A DNA stretch of 64,000 nt. It comes from a virus. This document shows, piece after piece, positions 1-39,941 of this stretch. The translations under genes were made by a program, and so were the position numbers. The stretch spans positions 1-64,000 of the IMG/VR virus record IMGVR_UViG_3300025150_000003. One strand, given 5' to 3'. The number at the start of each line of letters is the position of its first letter. Within the stretch, counting starts at the first letter, position 1. The notes beneath the pieces are model-generated. The model did not search any database, was not told the origin of the DNA, and was given only the letters and a program-made list of their open reading frames with translations.

Positions 1-182
1 GGAGCCGGTGGAATGGCTGTGGAAAGGGTAGTTGCGGTAGCTGCCGCAACCGCTGCCCCAACAGGAGCCGGTGGAATGGCTGTGGAAAGGGTGATTGCTC
101 TCGCCTCGGCACGGGCTGAATCCACCCAGGGGTCGGGCATGAATGGCCCATCAAAATCAGGGGACTGGAAAGGGAGGGTCAT
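1..182 (-). CDS. Partial Ala/Pro/Thr-rich repeat protein (runs off window)
   Basis: ATG at 182 overlaps upstream TGA; MTLPFQSPDF...TLSTAIPPAP repeated; 29-bp direct repeat at 1-29 and 64-92 (63-bp period). Confidence 0.65.
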   Translation of the reverse strand, partial: MTLPFQSPDFDGPFMPDPWVDSARAEARAITLSTAIPPAPVGAAVAAATATTLSTAIPPA

Positions 183-1255
183 GGTCCCACACCTCCGAGT
201 CGCCAGGTTGCTGGGACGCCACTAGCTCCTGCAATGTACTCCGCTGTACCCCCACCGGGCACGATTGAGAGGCCACAGATGGTGAAAGTGCCCAGTCCCG
301 TGGCGATGAGCCGGCCTCGAAGTGTGTCCCCTGCCATCGGCAGGTCAGGGGCAGTAATGGTCACATCACCGGTTCTCAGGTCCGCGTGATACGTCACACC
401 GGGCTCCCCTATCACCGAGGCTGGCCCCGTGACCGTCACGGTCTTGGTACGTGTGAGCCCGTTGACCGTGAGGCTGGTCGCGACCACATCACCACCACCA
501 CCACCACCACCACCTTGCCAGTCGGTGCTACCCAGTTGTGTGTCGATAGCAGTGACGATCTCCGCCCCAGATTGGTCTGCCGTCGCCCCAGTCTCAATCC
601 CGTTGAGTTTGGTCTTGTCTGTACCGGTCATCAACCCGGAGTTACCGGCTGCTACGACCTCGGGAAGAGTGGCATCAGCACCCGTGCTGCTCGCAAGGAG
701 CCGGGATGATGCGGTGTAAGCGAGATCAGTTCCGACGTTGACCTGAGCCCCGGTTGCGATCCCGTTGAGCTTGGTTTTGTCTGTACCGGTCATCAACCCG
801 GAGTTACCGGCTGCTACGACCTCTGGCAGCGTTGCATCGGACCCCGTGCTGCTCGCAAGGAGCCGGGATGATGCGGTGTAAGCGAGATCAGTTCCGACGT
901 TGACCTGAGCGCCTGCGGCGATCCCGTCGAGTTTGGTTTTGTCTGTACCAGTCACCAACCCGGAGTTACCGGCTGCTACGACCTCGGGAAGGGTGACCCC
1001 TGTACCGCTCGATGAGGTCAGGGCTCGGGTCGAGGCAGTGTAACCGAGGTTAGTTGCTCCAGCCCCACCAGCGATAGAGCCTACTAGTTCCCAGACGGCT
1101 GCGTGCCAGCGGTAGATGGCACCCGTGTCGATTTCAAGGACCAGTTGGTCCACAATCGCCGGATCAATGGCCAGCCGTTCCGTGGAATCAGCAACGGACA
1201 CCAGCCCCTGCTGGACCAACTCTTGGAGTTGTTCTTCGGTGACGTTGTATGCCAT
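179..1255 (-). CDS. Fibre-like virion protein with 54-aa tandem repeats
   Basis: Three copies of LAYTASSRLLASSTG.DATLPEVVAAGNSGLMTGTDKTKLNGI; poly-Gly linker; ATG 1255 overlaps upstream stop. Confidence 0.65.
   Translation of the reverse strand: MAYNVTEEQLQELVQQGLVSVADSTERLAIDPAIVDQLVLEIDTGAIYRWHAAVWELVGSIAGGAGATNLGYTASTRALTSSSGTGVTLPEVVAAGNSGLVTGTDKTKLDGIAAGAQVNVGTDLAYTASSRLLASSTGSDATLPEVVAAGNSGLMTGTDKTKLNGIATGAQVNVGTDLAYTASSRLLASSTGADATLPEVVAAGNSGLMTGTDKTKLNGIETGATADQSGAEIVTAIDTQLGSTDWQGGGGGGGGDVVATSLTVNGLTRTKTVTVTGPASVIGEPGVTYHADLRTGDVTITAPDLPMAGDTLRGRLIATGLGTFTICGLSIVPGGGTAEYIAGASGVPATWRLGGVGP
598..1050. repeat. Intragenic tandem repeat, 162-bp unit, about 3 copies
   Basis: Units begin near 601, 763 and 925. 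Confidence 0.9.
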
Positions 1256-1860
1256 CAGACGATGCTCCACTCGGTGCCCGAGAACACGAAGGTCCAGGCA
1301 CCGCGATTGCTGGAGATCGTAGTGCTTGCAGCACCATCAATCGTGTCACCCGCAAAGGCGTTGATGGTGATCGGTGTGGCCAGGGCCATGTTTTTCTTGT
1401 CTTTCACGGTGATGATGCCACTGATGTGGGTGGAGCCTTCAGGTAGGTTGACTGTGAACGCACCAGCCACCGCCGGGTTTACCAGCACCACGTCCGTGTT
1501 GGCATCTACGTCGTAGGGGGTGATGAGGGCCTCCACACGAGTGGTGGCCAGCCCCTGCTTGATGAGGCTCCCCACGAGGAACTCAACCGTGACCTCCCCA
1601 TCAGTGATGAGTCCACGGATGTCCCCGGTCTCGAAGCTCTGGGCCACTAGAGAGGTGAACACCAAGTCGATGTAGCCCGGAGCCCCACCAGGCATGGCGT
1701 AGGGGACGTACTGGGCCGGCAACCGGAGGCCCCGCCGAGCCTCATCACTCTTGATGTCGTCGATGAGGATGGATGAGGTTCGTCGTGTACTCGTACTATA
1801 CGGTGGCGTCGGCAGGAGCCGCCTCGCATGAGTAATTCGGAGTTGGATTCCCTCGGCCAT
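1255..1860 (-). CDS. Hypothetical, probably virion-associated
   Basis: 201-aa ORF with GAGGAG RBS; beta-rich C-terminus (TVNLP...ITVKD...ITINAFAGDTIDG). Confidence 0.65.
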   Translation of the reverse strand: MAEGIQLRITHARRLLPTPPYSTSTRRTSSILIDDIKSDEARRGLRLPAQYVPYAMPGGAPGYIDLVFTSLVAQSFETGDIRGLITDGEVTVEFLVGSLIKQGLATTRVEALITPYDVDANTDVVLVNPAVAGAFTVNLPEGSTHISGIITVKDKKNMALATPITINAFAGDTIDGAASTTISSNRGAWTFVFSGTEWSIV

Positions 1861-1958
1861 GCAGATGAACTCCTCGCCCTGTCATCACCTGATCGCTCCT
1901 ATAGAAGAACAAGCGAGGATTTCCCACGCAGAACAACAATCCCAACTGCTAGTAGGGC

Positions 1959-1986
1959 TTGACATTCAGATCGAAGACTCTATGGT
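1959..1986 (+). promoter_or_regulatory. Sigma70-like promoter
   Basis: TTGACA-N16-TATGGT; leader ATG lies 7 nt after the -10, implying a leaderless start. Confidence 0.6.
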
Positions 1987-1993
1987 AGGGGAC

Positions 1994-2077
1994 ATGATGA
2001 CTCGCAACGCACGCATTCACTTCTTCTAGGTCCCGCCCTGTCGCGGCCCTCCGTGGTTGATCAGCCCCGTCCCCTGA
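1994..2077 (+). promoter_or_regulatory. Leader peptide with internal UAG, RGPP motif and anti-SD (putative translational attenuator)
   Basis: MMTRNARIHFF-TAG(2027)-VPPCRGPPWLISPVP-TGA; CTCCGT 2049-2054 is complementary to SD ACGGAG 2097-2102. Confidence 0.65.
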
Positions 2078-2108
2078 CGCGCTCACCAACCAACAAACGG
2101 AGTCTACC

Positions 2109-2630
2109 GTGAATCACAGCGCACTGAAGAACGAGATCAATCTCCAAGCCACCACGACGCACGATCAGCGTCACGACGCCACCCGCCTGTTCATTAAAGG
2201 CCGCAAGCTCCGCCGTGAAGGCCGTGCCTTGGGGGCTGAGGGCAATGGTGGACCCGACCCTGAAAAGGGAGTGCAGCTCCTCAAGCAGGGCTGGCAGGCG
2301 CACCAGGATGCAGAGTACCTGATCATGACGGGCGAGGACACCCGGTGTGATCGTCGCCACCTGCACCTCGCTGCTGCAATGCTCAACGGCCGGACCTACC
2401 TCCGGTGTGAACGGAGCTACAACGAGCAGGCCACGGGCAAGCCGGGATACCGCACGATCAGGTTCCACATTGAGGACTTCCTCCCGAGCGAAGACAAGGC
2501 CCTGGCCAACGTGCTCGCTCAGGCATGGCTCGACAACGGCAATGTCCGGCTGAAGTACGATCGGGAAACCGATCGTGTTCAGCTCGTCGCGGTCGATGCC
2601 CCGCTTATCGAGCAGGCTGAGGCCGCGTGA
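2109..2630 (+). CDS. Phage hypothetical protein (RHLHLAAAMLNGRTY motif)
   Basis: 173-aa ORF, GGAG RBS, translationally coupled to the next gene. Confidence 0.8.
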   Translation: MNHSALKNEINLQATTTHDQRHDATRLFIKGRKLRREGRALGAEGNGGPDPEKGVQLLKQGWQAHQDAEYLIMTGEDTRCDRRHLHLAAAMLNGRTYLRCERSYNEQATGKPGYRTIRFHIEDFLPSEDKALANVLAQAWLDNGNVRLKYDRETDRVQLVAVDAPLIEQAEAA

Positions 2631-2983
2631 TGTGTGACCGCTTGTACTTCGTCACCCGGGCTGATCTGTCCGAGGGTCGCAGAGCTGCCCAGCTCATCCA
2701 CGCCATGGACCAGTGGTCCCTCCAATTCGGGCCTCAGCAGGGCACGGTCATCGTCTACCAGGTCCCCAACGAGGAGAGTCTGCTGAAAATGTTGCCCGAG
2801 GGTGGACAGACCGTCCTCTGGCGTGAACCGGACCTGGACAACCAGGCCACGGCTTTCGCCACAGACCAGGGGAGGATGGACCTCCCCCTGCTCGGACAAC
2901 GACCCCCCACGCCAGAACCCCTATCGGGTGGCGGCGTAACGCCAGGGGGGACCCGGATTGGGTCCCCCTTCATGCGCGGGTAG
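2630..2983 (+). CDS. Peptidyl-tRNA hydrolase, Pth2-like
   Basis: LYFVTRADLSEG..AAQLIHA and WREPDLDNQATAFA...LPLL motifs. Confidence 0.75.
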   Translation: MCDRLYFVTRADLSEGRRAAQLIHAMDQWSLQFGPQQGTVIVYQVPNEESLLKMLPEGGQTVLWREPDLDNQATAFATDQGRMDLPLLGQRPPTPEPLSGGGVTPGGTRIGSPFMRG

Positions 2984-3170
2984 CTCATCGGTAGAGCATC
3001 AGGTGTAGGCTGAGGAAGGCAGTAGAAGGGTGGGTGGGGCCGGAACCTTCCATCTGGAACTGCACGGACCAAGCCTCGGGCTGAAGCCTTGGAAGAGGGT
3101 CGCTCCCCGATCTACGGCCGACACCGAAACATCCTGAAGGGAGGAGGTTCGATTCCTCCACCGCGTACTA
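2974..3170 (+). ncRNA. tRNA-like RNA with 129-nt insert in place of the anticodon loop
   Basis: Acceptor GCGCGGG/ACCGCGT, D-arm GCTC-ATCGGTA-GAGC, stem TCAGG/CCTGA, T-arm GGAGG-TTCGATT-CCTCC. Confidence 0.7.
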
Positions 3171-3494
3171 GAGCTTGTTGATCTCTTTCTTGCGTTTGGC
3201 GATCAAGCCAACCGCGAGTAGGCGACGGATGGTCTCTTTCCGCTGCCTCCGTTTCTCCTCGAAGAAACGGAGGATGTCCCTGGGCCAGCCCCAGGGACTG
3301 ATGCTACGGAACTCCCCACCGGGGATGACCACAACGACAGGGAAGATCTTCGGACGTTTGGGAGGATGGACCTCTACCTGATAGAGCTTGCCACCGATGC
3401 GGACGGAGGGACTGATCAGGCGACCGTTGATCCACCTCCAGTGCATCGTGTGGGTCGCCTTGAATACCTGGCGGGCGATCTTTCGGTTCGACAT
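3168..3494 (-). CDS. Hypothetical basic protein
   Basis: 108-aa ORF in operon. Confidence 0.6.
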   Translation of the reverse strand: MSNRKIARQVFKATHTMHWRWINGRLISPSVRIGGKLYQVEVHPPKRPKIFPVVVVIPGGEFRSISPWGWPRDILRFFEEKRRQRKETIRRLLAVGLIAKRKKEINKL

Positions 3495-5035: not shown

Positions 5036-5315
5036 GCACGGGGTTTGCACCCGTACTTGGTCTGTTTCTCAACAGATGCCTCTGTATTTTGGGCTAGCGG
5101 GAGGCTCATGTTCTGCGGGGATGGTGGGTCCCCCTTTGAAGTGGCTGGAATCGAACCAGCTAGAGAGGGTTTCATTTGCCCCCTGGCCCGCCATGGACGA
5201 TCACAGGCGGGACCCACCAATACTGGCTTCCGCTCCCCCCAACCCCAAGTCAGAGGGTGTTGAGTCCCCCCACTGAAGGGGGGGCTCCCCAACGAGGGGA
5301 GAGGGCGTGCCAGTA
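5036..5315 (-). ncRNA. Structured ncRNA with T-loop hairpins
   Basis: Own class I motif; stems TACTGGC/GCCAGTA and TGGTGGGTCCC/GGGACCCACCA; T-arm GCTGG-TTCGATT-CCAGC; no credible ORF. Confidence 0.6.
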
Positions 5316-5318
5316 ACT

Positions 5319-5349
5319 CGACTACGCGAAAGGGGTCAGAGTTGAGCCC
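5319..5349 (-). promoter_or_regulatory. Class I promoter-like motif (upstream of ncRNA)
   Basis: GGGCTCAA-N15-CGTAGTCG. Confidence 0.75.
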
Positions 5350-11214: not shown

Positions 11215-11778
11215 TTGAGGGTGCTACCTGTAATGCCCCCAGTGCTCGAACATCACCAGTTTGTTGCTAAGGTCTTGAGTTGTGATGCCTGTAGGCTGCG
11301 ACTGAGCCGCACTCACCCAGCGATCTGTAGAGGCCCCCAAAGTGCTCCTCTCATGATTCTTGGCGAAGCTCCGGGTGTCGAGGATGACCAACGCGGTCTC
11401 CCTTTCGTCGGTCCGTCCGGGCTTCTGTTGAGCCATGCCCTACTCCACGCGGAGATACCCGAGGATCAGGTCTACATCTGCAACCTCGTGAAATGTAAGC
11501 CCCCACGGCACCAGATGCCCACCAAGGAGGAGATCCGCTCCTGCCACCCATGGCTCCTACATCAGATCATCACAGTTCAGCCAAGAGCTATCGTGACTGT
11601 GGGCAGGACCGCTACCGCCACCCTAACCGGTCAACGAAAGGTTTGGGCTGAGGATGAAGTTCTCGTCTGCTCGTTTGATGAACGAACGCCCGTGTACCCG
11701 ATTTGGGGGGCTGAACGGCCGAACCATCGGGTAGATGTAGAGCAACTGAGACGTGCCTGGCGGGAGGCCACAACATGA
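11215..11778 (+). CDS. Uracil-DNA glycosylase family 4
   Basis: CxxCxL, GEAPG, PFVGPSG, NLVKCKPP. Confidence 0.9.
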   Translation: MRVLPVMPPVLEHHQFVAKVLSCDACRLRLSRTHPAICRGPQSAPLMILGEAPGVEDDQRGLPFVGPSGLLLSHALLHAEIPEDQVYICNLVKCKPPRHQMPTKEEIRSCHPWLLHQIITVQPRAIVTVGRTATATLTGQRKVWAEDEVLVCSFDERTPVYPIWGAERPNHRVDVEQLRRAWREATT

Positions 11779-12155
11779 TCAAGCAAGTTATCGTGATGAG
11801 AACGGACCTTGGGATGCGCAAGGGCAAGATGATTGCTCAGGGTGCTCACGCTGCCATGAAGGTGCTGCTTGACCGTGGGTCAGTAGGCGACAGTGGACTC
11901 CTGTTCGTGGCGTTGACCGATGAGATGGAGGAGTGGCTCACAGGCTTGTTCACCAAGATCTGTCTACAGGTCGGTTCCGAGAGTGAGTTGCTGGCACTCT
12001 TGCGAAAAGCGCAAGAGTGCCATCTACCTTGCGCCCTAGTCGAAGATGCCGGTCTGACTGAGTTTCACGGGGTGAGGACGGCTACTTGCATTGCAATAGG
12101 ACCGGCAGAGGCGGAGGCTATCGACGCAATCACGGGCCACTTGAGGCTGCTCTAG
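11775..12155 (+). CDS. pth2: Peptidyl-tRNA hydrolase Pth2
   Basis: KQVIVMRTDLGMRKGKMIAQGAHA, DAGLTEF, IGP...ID.ITGHL.LL. Confidence 0.95.
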   Translation: MIKQVIVMRTDLGMRKGKMIAQGAHAAMKVLLDRGSVGDSGLLFVALTDEMEEWLTGLFTKICLQVGSESELLALLRKAQECHLPCALVEDAGLTEFHGVRTATCIAIGPAEAEAIDAITGHLRLL

Positions 12156-14460: not shown

Positions 14461-14552
14461 AATCCTGTAGGCGAGTGGTCGAAGCCAAAGGACTCTAAAT
14501 CCTTCGGGGCATTGCGCCCCCACCGCAGGTTCAAACCCTGCCAGGAGCACAA
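14461..14552 (+). tRNA. tRNA with CUA anticodon (amber suppressor type), long variable arm
   Basis: AAGGA-CT CTA AA-TCCTT; GCAGG-TTCAAAC-CCTGC; acceptor only 5/7 paired; CAA instead of CCA. Confidence 0.75.
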
Positions 14553-39731: not shown

Positions 39732-39737
39732 GGGTGT

Positions 39738-39920
39738 GAGAGTAATAGGCAGGCAAGCCTAGCCTGACCGGGATGCCGGTCAGGAGACAAAACGAGAGGA
39801 CTTTTCTCCTGAGATGGTTTGATTCCGCCCCGCCTGGTTGGCTCGCCTTGGACACAAGGCTTACAGGGCAAGTCTCAGGAGAGGGACCTAACGTTCCTGG
39901 TTCGAATCCAGGTGCTCCCA
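39738..39920 (+). ncRNA. tRNA-like RNA with expanded central domain
   Basis: Starts right after class I motif; GAGAGTA/TGCTCCC, AGGC-AGGCAA-GCCT, CCTGG-TTCGAAT-CCAGG; internal long stems. Confidence 0.65.
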
Positions 39921-39941
39921 CACCCTAACCCACGAGAAGGA

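What the first reader, a model, noticed from the sequence alone, without database searches (positions are those of the whole stretch)
1959..3170. Candidate amber-readthrough sensor: UAG + RGPP leader gating a peptidyl-tRNA hydrolase operon
Seen: a sigma70-like promoter (TTGACA-N16-TATGGT) precedes a likely leaderless uORF MMTRNARIHFF ending in TAG (2027-2029). The same frame continues VPPC-RGPP-WLISPVP-TGA. The Pro-Pro-Trp codons contain CTCCGT (2049-2054), the exact complement of the next gene's SD ACGGAG (2097-2102), and GTTG/CAAC extends the stem. Downstream are a 173-aa protein, a Pth2-like hydrolase and a tRNA-like RNA. Known: RAPP/RGPP motifs arrest ribosomes in the ApdA/ApdP/ApcA-type monitoring peptides, and Pth recycles dropped-off peptidyl-tRNA. 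Inference: a ribosome that terminates at UAG does not reach the anti-SD. One that reads through stalls at RGPP and exposes the SD. The operon would therefore switch on when UAG termination fails (RF1 loss or suppression), a phage translation-termination surveillance module I do not know to have been described.
Basis: partly seen in the sequence, partly recalled or inferred. Interest (0 to 1): 0.93.

Follow-up and report, generated by a model that had tools for sequence, protein, structure and literature searches.

The report
Suppressor-tRNA-gated ribosome-stall switch in phage
A large groundwater phage that uses the normal genetic code has a small operon that can probably be translated only when a phage-made tRNA reads through a UAG stop in its short leader and the ribosome stalls just beyond it; this gives the unexplained stop-reading tRNAs of such phages a conserved target, but no experiment has tested it.

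Summary
Observation confirmed. The leader (sigma70 promoter, leaderless uORF, stop, 1-7 codons, Arg-Gly-Pro-Pro, anti-SD in the Pro-Pro codons) precedes this operon in 28 of 29 assessable close relatives and in distant ones, always in frame. This genome has a CUA tRNA at 14461, but it is atypical, with a damaged acceptor stem. Six cultured phages gate the same Pth2-like family with a TAG at codon 2-4 instead, which supports 'readthrough = ON'. Modelling keeps the SD paired with a ribosome at the stop and opens it at RGPP. Caveats: the 'hydrolase' has a Pth2 fold but lacks the canonical Lys/Asp/Thr; the physiological trigger (release-factor shortage, tRNA charging or phage timing) is unresolved; nothing is experimental. 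The operon ends in a conserved 197-nt tRNA-shaped RNA without an anticodon. I found no published description. This scan has reported the same system before on other phage DNA.

The parts
1959..1986 (+). host sigma70-type promoter (-35 TTGACA, -10 TATGGT); start site predicted at the uORF ATG (leaderless mRNA)
   Evidence: TTGAC lies 33-39 nt (mostly 35) before the uORF ATG in 23 of 34 leaders
1994..2029 (+). leaderless uORF, 11 codons, ending in the gating TAG (2027-2029)
   Evidence: residue before the stop is Thr/Ser in 21 of 33 and the one before that Phe/His/Trp/Tyr in 22 of 33
2030..2077 (+). readthrough extension VPPC-RGPP-WLISPVP-stop; RGPP arrest motif at 2042-2053
   Evidence: motif kept with 6 Arg codons and 4 Gly codons; spacer 1-7 codons
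2049..2059 (+). anti-SD strand inside the Pro-Pro-Trp codons
2097..2102 (+). Shine-Dalgarno of gene 1, sequestered by the anti-SD
   Evidence: unpaired probability 0.00 free, 0.00 with ribosome at the stop, 0.50 with ribosome at RGPP
2109..2630 (+). gene 1, 173 aa, basic helical-hairpin protein of an unnamed phage family (invariant Arg83, Glu101, Trp140)
   Evidence: no Pfam/PHROG hit; no specific fold match
2630..2983 (+). gene 2, Pth2-fold protein (core about 90 aa), start overlapping the stop of gene 1; its tail runs in a shifted frame to a TAG inside the RNA gene
2974..3170 (+). tRNA-shaped RNA: acceptor, D, anticodon and T stems kept; anticodon loop replaced by a ~129-nt folded insert; G1-U72 and A73
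   Evidence: no Rfam family (4, 38)
14461..14550 (+). amber suppressor tRNA (CUA), long variable arm, acceptor pairs 1-2 mismatched, no encoded CCA; candidate key for the leader, acting in trans

Best explanation
A lock-and-key translational switch. Host RNA polymerase makes a leaderless mRNA. Normally the ribosome terminates at the leader UAG, the Pro-Pro codons stay paired with the SD of gene 1, and the operon is off. [quoted passage not shown] The suppressor is most likely a deliberately weak, dedicated probe, and the signal is a shift in the competition at the stop codon: too little free release factor, or more charged suppressor. The output would be a small translation-rescue module. Shown: anatomy, conservation, stop/anticodon matching, predicted pairing. 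Inferred: transcription start, charging of the tRNA, readthrough, arrest, SD release. Least certain: the trigger and what the products do.
For: Leader in 28 of 29 assessable close loci and in distant ones, spacer always a whole number of codons. Arg and Gly vary synonymously, so the peptide is selected. SD partner maps to the Pro-Pro codons in nearly all loci; mean unpaired probability 0.09 free, 0.09 at the stop, 0.51 at RGPP (Wilcoxon p 7e-10, loci not independent). The Pro2 wobble base co-varies with the base 5' of GGAG (G-C 8, T-A 8; 16 of 30 against 10.0 in shuffles, p 0.01, not corrected for kinship). Stop and anticodon match: 21 TAG/CUA, 6 TAA/UUA; TAA is scattered on the tree (6 changes, at least 2 forced). 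The 51 suppressor tRNAs keep a 7-pair acceptor stem and A37-A38 (43). A second architecture puts TAG at codon 2-7 of the Pth2-like ORF in 10 metagenomic loci and 6 cultured phages. TAG-recoded Lak-A2 uses a TAA leader (RGSP variant) right behind a UUA tRNA, as expected if the gate must stay shut by default. RGPP is the strongest and most context-tolerant arrest core (PMC12992588); the stall geometry is from PMC10951233; SD unmasking by arrest is established (PMC10987492).
Against: No RNA, ribosome or reporter data. This genome's only detected suppressor is 11 kb away, class II, with mismatched acceptor pairs and no CCA, unlike the 51 others; the record is about 32% complete. TAG ends 49 of 143 predicted genes with no excess of back-up stops, so suppression must be weak or brief. 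The modelled SD opening is partial (0.5). Known RAPP/RGPP peptides are longer and were not tested at 15-25 residues in the papers I read. Gene 2 lacks the canonical Pth2 Lys/Asp/Thr (87).
Confidence: 0.68

Rival explanations
1. Developmental AND-gate or timer. The mRNA is made from the start by host polymerase but translated only after a phage promoter has produced the suppressor tRNA; no stress is sensed. (Same switch, different trigger.)
For: The operon has the record's only strict sigma70 match, while 16 other sites use a phage motif; in L004, L064, L066, L068, L069 and L076 the suppressor tRNA lies just behind that motif. Stop-codon recoding as a timer was proposed for recoded phages (10.1101/2021.08.26.457843).
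Against: A phage promoter in front of the operon would do the same more simply. In L002, L017, L020, L021, L027, L046 and L093 a suppressor lies inside the operon. Recoded Lak-A2 uses a separate TAA gate instead of its general TAG recoding.
Confidence: 0.2
2. Release-factor or termination sensor independent of the suppressor. Near-cognate host tRNAs read through, or a ribosome paused at the stop opens the SD.
For: Only UAG and UAA, the RF1 codons, occur as gates; residues before the stop are conserved; this genome's suppressor looks damaged.
Against: Stop and anticodon change together; a ribosome modelled at the stop does not open the SD; RGPP is conserved beyond the stop.
Confidence: 0.08
3. 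Feedback on the suppressor itself. The products deacylate, recycle or inactivate the suppressor tRNA, or release RGPP-stalled ribosomes, so the circuit only limits suppression.
For: Sign fits negative feedback; gene 2 has a tRNA-acceptor-binding fold; the suppressor is often in the operon.
Against: It does not explain why the suppressor exists: I found no other conserved amber target in the genome.
Confidence: 0.15
4. In this particular phage the circuit is decaying: the key tRNA is damaged and the operon is silent.
For: Acceptor mismatches and missing CCA in the tRNA; frame-shifted tail of gene 2 running into the RNA gene (43).
Against: Promoter, leader, hairpin, both ORFs and the RNA scaffold are intact; the tRNA keeps a perfect anticodon arm and sits next to the histidine kinase gene as in relatives; two thirds of the genome may be missing.
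Confidence: 0.12

Closest known systems
RAPP/RGPP arrest peptides (ApdA, ApdP, ApcA, SecM RAGP, CruR, Streptomyces uORFs; PMC12992588, PMC10987492, PMC10951233)
   Same: RGPP core upstream of a gene whose SD is in a stem that a stalled ribosome would open.
   Different: Here access to the motif is gated by an in-frame stop; the peptide is 15-25 aa with no localisation signal; arrest is the induced state and is not released by pulling; the anti-SD is in the Pro-Pro codons; the host is a phage.
prfB (RF2) autoregulation through an early in-frame UGA (own knowledge; also named in earlier scan notes)
   Same: An early stop codon reports competition with a release factor and turns on a translation factor.
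   Different: prfB uses a +1 frameshift and no extra tRNA; here readthrough is in frame, uses a dedicated suppressor and acts on a downstream gene.
Stop-codon-recoded phages and their suppressor tRNAs (10.1101/2021.08.26.457843)
   Same: A phage tRNA reads a stop codon and so controls phage gene expression.
   Different: This genome is not recoded (TAG ends about a third of genes); the target is one regulatory codon; UAA versions exist.
PepNL (PMC11890864) and TnaC-type leaders
   Same: Short leader whose outcome depends on release factor versus tRNA at its stop codon.
   Different: In PepNL the stall is at the stop and readthrough by Trp-tRNA cancels it; here readthrough is predicted to cause the stall.
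Pth2 (PF01981; AF2095 3erj, MJ0051 2zv3, human Bit1 1q7s)
   Same: Fold (Foldseek E 5e-4 to 8e-4, TM 0.58-0.66) and the RxDL..G...AQ..HA motif.
   Different: No Pfam hit; 90-aa core; Lys of GK not kept and the DAG.T loop replaced by EPDL, as I recall for PTRHD1-like proteins; a canonical Pth2 is encoded separately at 11775-12155.
tmRNA, YrlA-type Y RNAs, intron-containing tRNAs, T4 species 1 RNA (own knowledge and earlier scan notes)
   Same: tRNA-like upper body carrying an extra folded domain.
   Different: D stem and anticodon stem are kept, no tag ORF was called, no Rfam match, and the insert is shorter than known self-splicing introns.

Membership tests
RAPP/RGPP arrest peptides | Conserved R-[A/G]-P-P core at peptide level | tested here: met
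   33 leaders; 6 Arg codons, 4 Gly codons
RAPP/RGPP arrest peptides | Downstream SD held in a stem that the stalled ribosome covers | tested here: met
   (prediction and covariation only)
RAPP/RGPP arrest peptides | Motif-dependent elongation arrest | not testable with these tools
   needs toeprint or PURE assay
Sec/YidC monitoring substrates | N-terminal signal or membrane segment, and sec/yidC gene downstream | tested here: not met
   11-codon soluble uORF; downstream genes are unrelated
Stop-codon-recoded (code 15) phage | In-frame TAG in many genes, TAG avoided as terminator | tested here: not met
   TAG ends 49 of 143 ORFs; reading TAG as sense barely changes coverage
Pth2 (PF01981) | Pth2 alpha/beta fold | tested here: met
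Pth2 (PF01981) | Pfam profile above cut-off | tested here: not met
   (no hit); weak phrog_1866 hit, E 1.3e-6
Pth2 (PF01981) | Catalytic Lys/Asp/Thr (positions from own knowledge) | tested here: not met
   alignment with the genome's canonical Pth2
Pth2 (PF01981) | Peptidyl-tRNA hydrolysis | not testable with these tools
   needs assay
Decoding tRNA (RNA at 2974-3170) | 7-nt anticodon loop | tested here: not met
   replaced by ~129-nt insert in 13 loci
tmRNA / group I intron / other Rfam family (RNA at 2974-3170) | Match to the family model | tested here: inconclusive
   no hit at gathering score or at E<0.5; splicing not testable, no RNA run listed
Functional amber suppressor (14461-14550) | CUA anticodon in an intact cloverleaf with chargeable acceptor end | tested here: inconclusive
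   Rfam tRNA 45.7 bits, anticodon arm perfect, acceptor pairs 1-2 mismatched, no encoded CCA

The most novel reading that the evidence does not exclude
The suppressor tRNA is a dedicated sensor molecule. It lacks a fixed acceptor identity and is charged, or wins at the stop codon, only when host defence or infection stress removes release factor or ties up the competing tRNA (for example as peptidyl- or acetylated tRNA). It then switches on a three-part rescue module: helical protein, non-canonical Pth2-fold protein and an anticodon-less tRNA-shaped RNA. That would be a natural orthogonal tRNA-based stress circuit.
Probability: 0.25. Interest if true: 0.93.

Novelty: new variant of a known kind. 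Interest (0 to 1): 0.8.

Why it matters
Suppressor tRNAs in standard-code phages have had no known target. The XacN1 genome paper says so outright (PMC5852040), yet XacN1 has ATG-AAG-TAG in frame before its Pth2-like fusion gene. This system supplies a conserved target, shows stop and anticodon evolving together, and adds a new input (stop-codon suppression) to ribosome-arrest leaders. It can be tested in cultured phages on M. smegmatis and with simple reporters. If it reports release-factor or tRNA stress, it points to an unrecognised host attack on termination or tRNA and a phage counter-measure. It is also a ready-made, natural orthogonal translational switch.

Tried and rejected
Genome-wide TAG recoding: rejected. 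Chance occurrence of stop plus RGPP: rejected by frame and background controls. RGPP kept only as an RNA anti-SD: rejected, since Arg and Gly vary synonymously and the Gly wobble does not co-vary with the SD flank. Assembly error in the tail of gene 2: not seen in four runs. Hammerhead or other Rfam identity for the long RNA: no match. Single-sequence fold z-scores for leader and RNA are not significant. Single-protein locus searches found almost nothing; alignments were needed. PDB sequence search with gene 2 gave no hit; profile comparison with the canonical Pth2 was weak. Fold searches for gene 1 gave only generic helical hairpins. Complex prediction of gene 1 with gene 2: no verdict. No RNA holder listed among sequencing runs. 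No release factor gene in the partial record. No other conserved stop-RGPP leader in the genome (one TAA..RAPP match without promoter). In-frame TAG gene junctions are not clearly enriched (4 TAG, 2 TAA, 2 TGA). No viral contig matched the window's suppressor anticodon/variable arm. Powers et al. 2005 was not available, so Pth2 catalytic positions rest on my own knowledge. Nine literature searches found no description of the circuit.

Full report
Context. The window is the first 64 kb of a 169-kb virus record, about 32% complete by CheckV, found in groundwater, aquifer and hot-spring metagenomes. One close homologue lies in a Bradymonadia (Myxococcota) MAG, a weak host hint. The code is standard: TAG ends 49 of 143 predicted ORFs and reading TAG as sense barely changes coverage. 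The record encodes one CUA tRNA (14461-14550) and a canonical Pth2 (11775-12155).

Observation. The promoter is the only strict sigma70 match in the record, while 16 sites carry a phage-specific motif. The ATG lies 35 nt after the -35 box, so the mRNA is probably leaderless; the same spacing holds in most relatives. Four sequencing runs show no differences in 1900-3250.

Conservation of the leader. Homologues of both proteins were collected. A uORF-stop-spacer-RGPP leader lies 61-90 nt before the first gene in 28 of 29 assessable close loci and in several distant ones. The spacer is 1-7 codons and always in frame. The stop is TAG or TAA, never TGA. Controls: the other two frames hold such a stop in 4 and 1 of 33 cases, and only 8 of 111 non-leader R[AG]PP sites have one. 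Arg uses six codons and Gly four, so the peptide is under selection; the first Pro is mostly CCT, which builds the anti-SD. Residues before the stop are biased (Thr/Ser at -1, aromatic or His at -2). The window's extra VPP is not conserved.

RNA switch. In nearly all loci the SD pairs with the Pro-Pro codons. Mean unpaired probability is 0.09 on free RNA, 0.09 with a ribosome modelled at the stop, and 0.51 with one at RGPP; in the window 0.00, 0.00 and 0.50 (footprint to +13 from the P-site codon is my assumption, and the stall register follows PMC10951233). The wobble base of the second Pro co-varies with the base before GGAG. This is the SecM-type unmasking logic (PMC10987492), and RGPP is the strongest context-tolerant core (PMC12992588).

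The key. Suppressor tRNAs sit near most loci. Where both are seen, TAG goes with CUA (21 loci) and TAA with UUA (6 loci: five, L078); Fisher p 1.5e-5 for 21/5, not corrected for kinship. TAA leaders are scattered on a poorly resolved tree (6 changes, at least 2 forced by well-supported branches). The 51 tRNAs are class I, with full acceptor stems and mostly A37-A38, but no fixed acceptor identity. The window's tRNA is different: long variable arm, a D loop that looks tRNA-Tyr-like to me, two acceptor mismatches, no CCA. It lies beside the histidine kinase gene that flanks the suppressor in relatives, but inverted. Whether it works is open.

A second architecture fixes the sign. In 10 metagenomic loci and in cultured phages Catera, Myrna, ME3, RAS14, XacN1 and fHe-Yen9-03, the Pth2-like ORF itself carries a TAG at codon 2-7 (2-4 in the cultured ones), with a CUA tRNA in the locus or, by pattern match, elsewhere in the genome (none seen in the fetched DNA of L055). 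There the protein can only be made by readthrough, so readthrough means ON. The XacN1 paper reported its CUA tRNAs and found no target (PMC5852040). TAG-recoded Lak-A2 has a TAA leader ending RGSP right behind a UUA tRNA, which suggests that the gate must stay closed even when TAG is generally read.

Products. Gene 1 is a basic helical hairpin of an unnamed phage family with no specific fold match. Gene 2 has the Pth2 fold but not the canonical Lys, Asp and Thr, so 'hydrolase' is a lead only. Its start overlaps the stop of gene 1, which suggests coupling; in this phage its tail has shifted frame and ends at a TAG inside the RNA gene. The RNA at 2974-3170 keeps acceptor, D, anticodon and T stems with compensatory changes (18 of 31 pairs; 93% of cells paired against about 50% when slid), with G1-U72 in 10 of 11. 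A ~129-nt insert replaces the anticodon loop; one small hairpin in it is conserved. It is found in 13 loci, many relatives lack it, and Rfam has no match. It is an accessory part and cannot decode unless spliced.

Mechanism and odds. The gate (suppressor readthrough, RGPP stall, SD release) is my best reading at about 0.68. Because TAG is a common true stop with no excess of back-up stops, suppression must be weak or brief, which suits a probe. The trigger is not settled. Release-factor shortage fits the use of only UAG and UAA. More charging of the suppressor when its competitor tRNA is tied up fits the missing acceptor identity and gives the right sign for a Pth-like output (inference; synthetase competition is from my own knowledge). 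A timer fits the promoter split. The rivals listed share the switch and overlap in part.

Novelty. Each part has a precedent: RAPP-type leaders, prfB, PepNL, recoded phages. I found no paper that joins them. I file it as a new variant of arrest-leader control with a new input. The scan has reported both architectures on other genomes and similar tRNA-shaped RNAs. These are unchecked AI notes and not independent support; one later check put the bold reading at 20 in 100. What this locus adds is a key tRNA acting in trans and possibly damaged, the sole host-type promoter, and the long tRNA-shaped RNA as operon end.

Noticed in passing
L011 2418-2501, L013 2424-2501, L043, L045, L052, L058 (just before 2501): A third layout: the Pth2-like ORF has no free start; its reading frame begins inside the upstream tRNA-like gene. 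In L011 and L013 the ATG lies in the anticodon loop (L013 with GGAG in the stem). Translation may depend on tRNA processing or cleavage.
   Followed up: partly
L075 2795-3617, L076 2166-2837, L078 2141-2426: Arrays of tRNA-shaped genes after or before the Pth2-like gene, with the anticodon loop sealed (often by a UUCG hairpin) or replaced by long inserts.
   Followed up: partly
window 39732-39925: Second tRNA-shaped RNA with T arm and acceptor stem but no anticodon loop, directly behind the phage promoter motif; not matched by the model of the operon RNA.
   Followed up: partly
window 5036-5349 (- strand): ORF-poor, structured region behind the phage promoter motif, with a T-arm-like hairpin; possible ncRNA.
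   Followed up: no
window 11775-12155: Canonical Pth2 (PF01981, E 1.5e-32), itself ending in TAG, so the phage has two Pth2-fold genes.
   Followed up: partly
genome-wide, e.g. window 13215, 14325, 21698, 28265, 33066, 39701, 46483, 55750, 58339: Phage promoter-like motif GGGCTCAAC-N14-CGTAGTA, 16 copies in the record, also in relatives.
   Followed up: partly
L002 765-1214, L004 1760-2155, L007 1758-2153: A GNAT acetyltransferase gene lies between the suppressor tRNA and the leader in three relatives; absent from this record.
   Followed up: partly
L095 1939-2800, L096 1939-2800: In RAS14 and XacN1 the amber-gated gene is a fusion of an HD-like domain and the Pth2-like domain, annotated from a later start codon.
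   Followed up: partly
L001 2438-2482, L028 2776, L032 2784, L037 1788, L055 2771: Leader variants: double TAG ending in TPP, and RSPP, RDPP or RGPP leaders at other positions in the cassette.
   Followed up: no
G000 89935, 132792, 164310 and window 45955: Four TAG-ended ORFs are followed in frame within one codon by the next ORF; possible readthrough fusions, but TAA and TGA cases exist too.
   Followed up: partly
window 179-1860 (- strand): Tail-fibre and baseplate-like genes with internal repeats diverge from the operon promoter; relatives have other genes here, so the cassette's upstream neighbourhood was rearranged.
   Followed up: no
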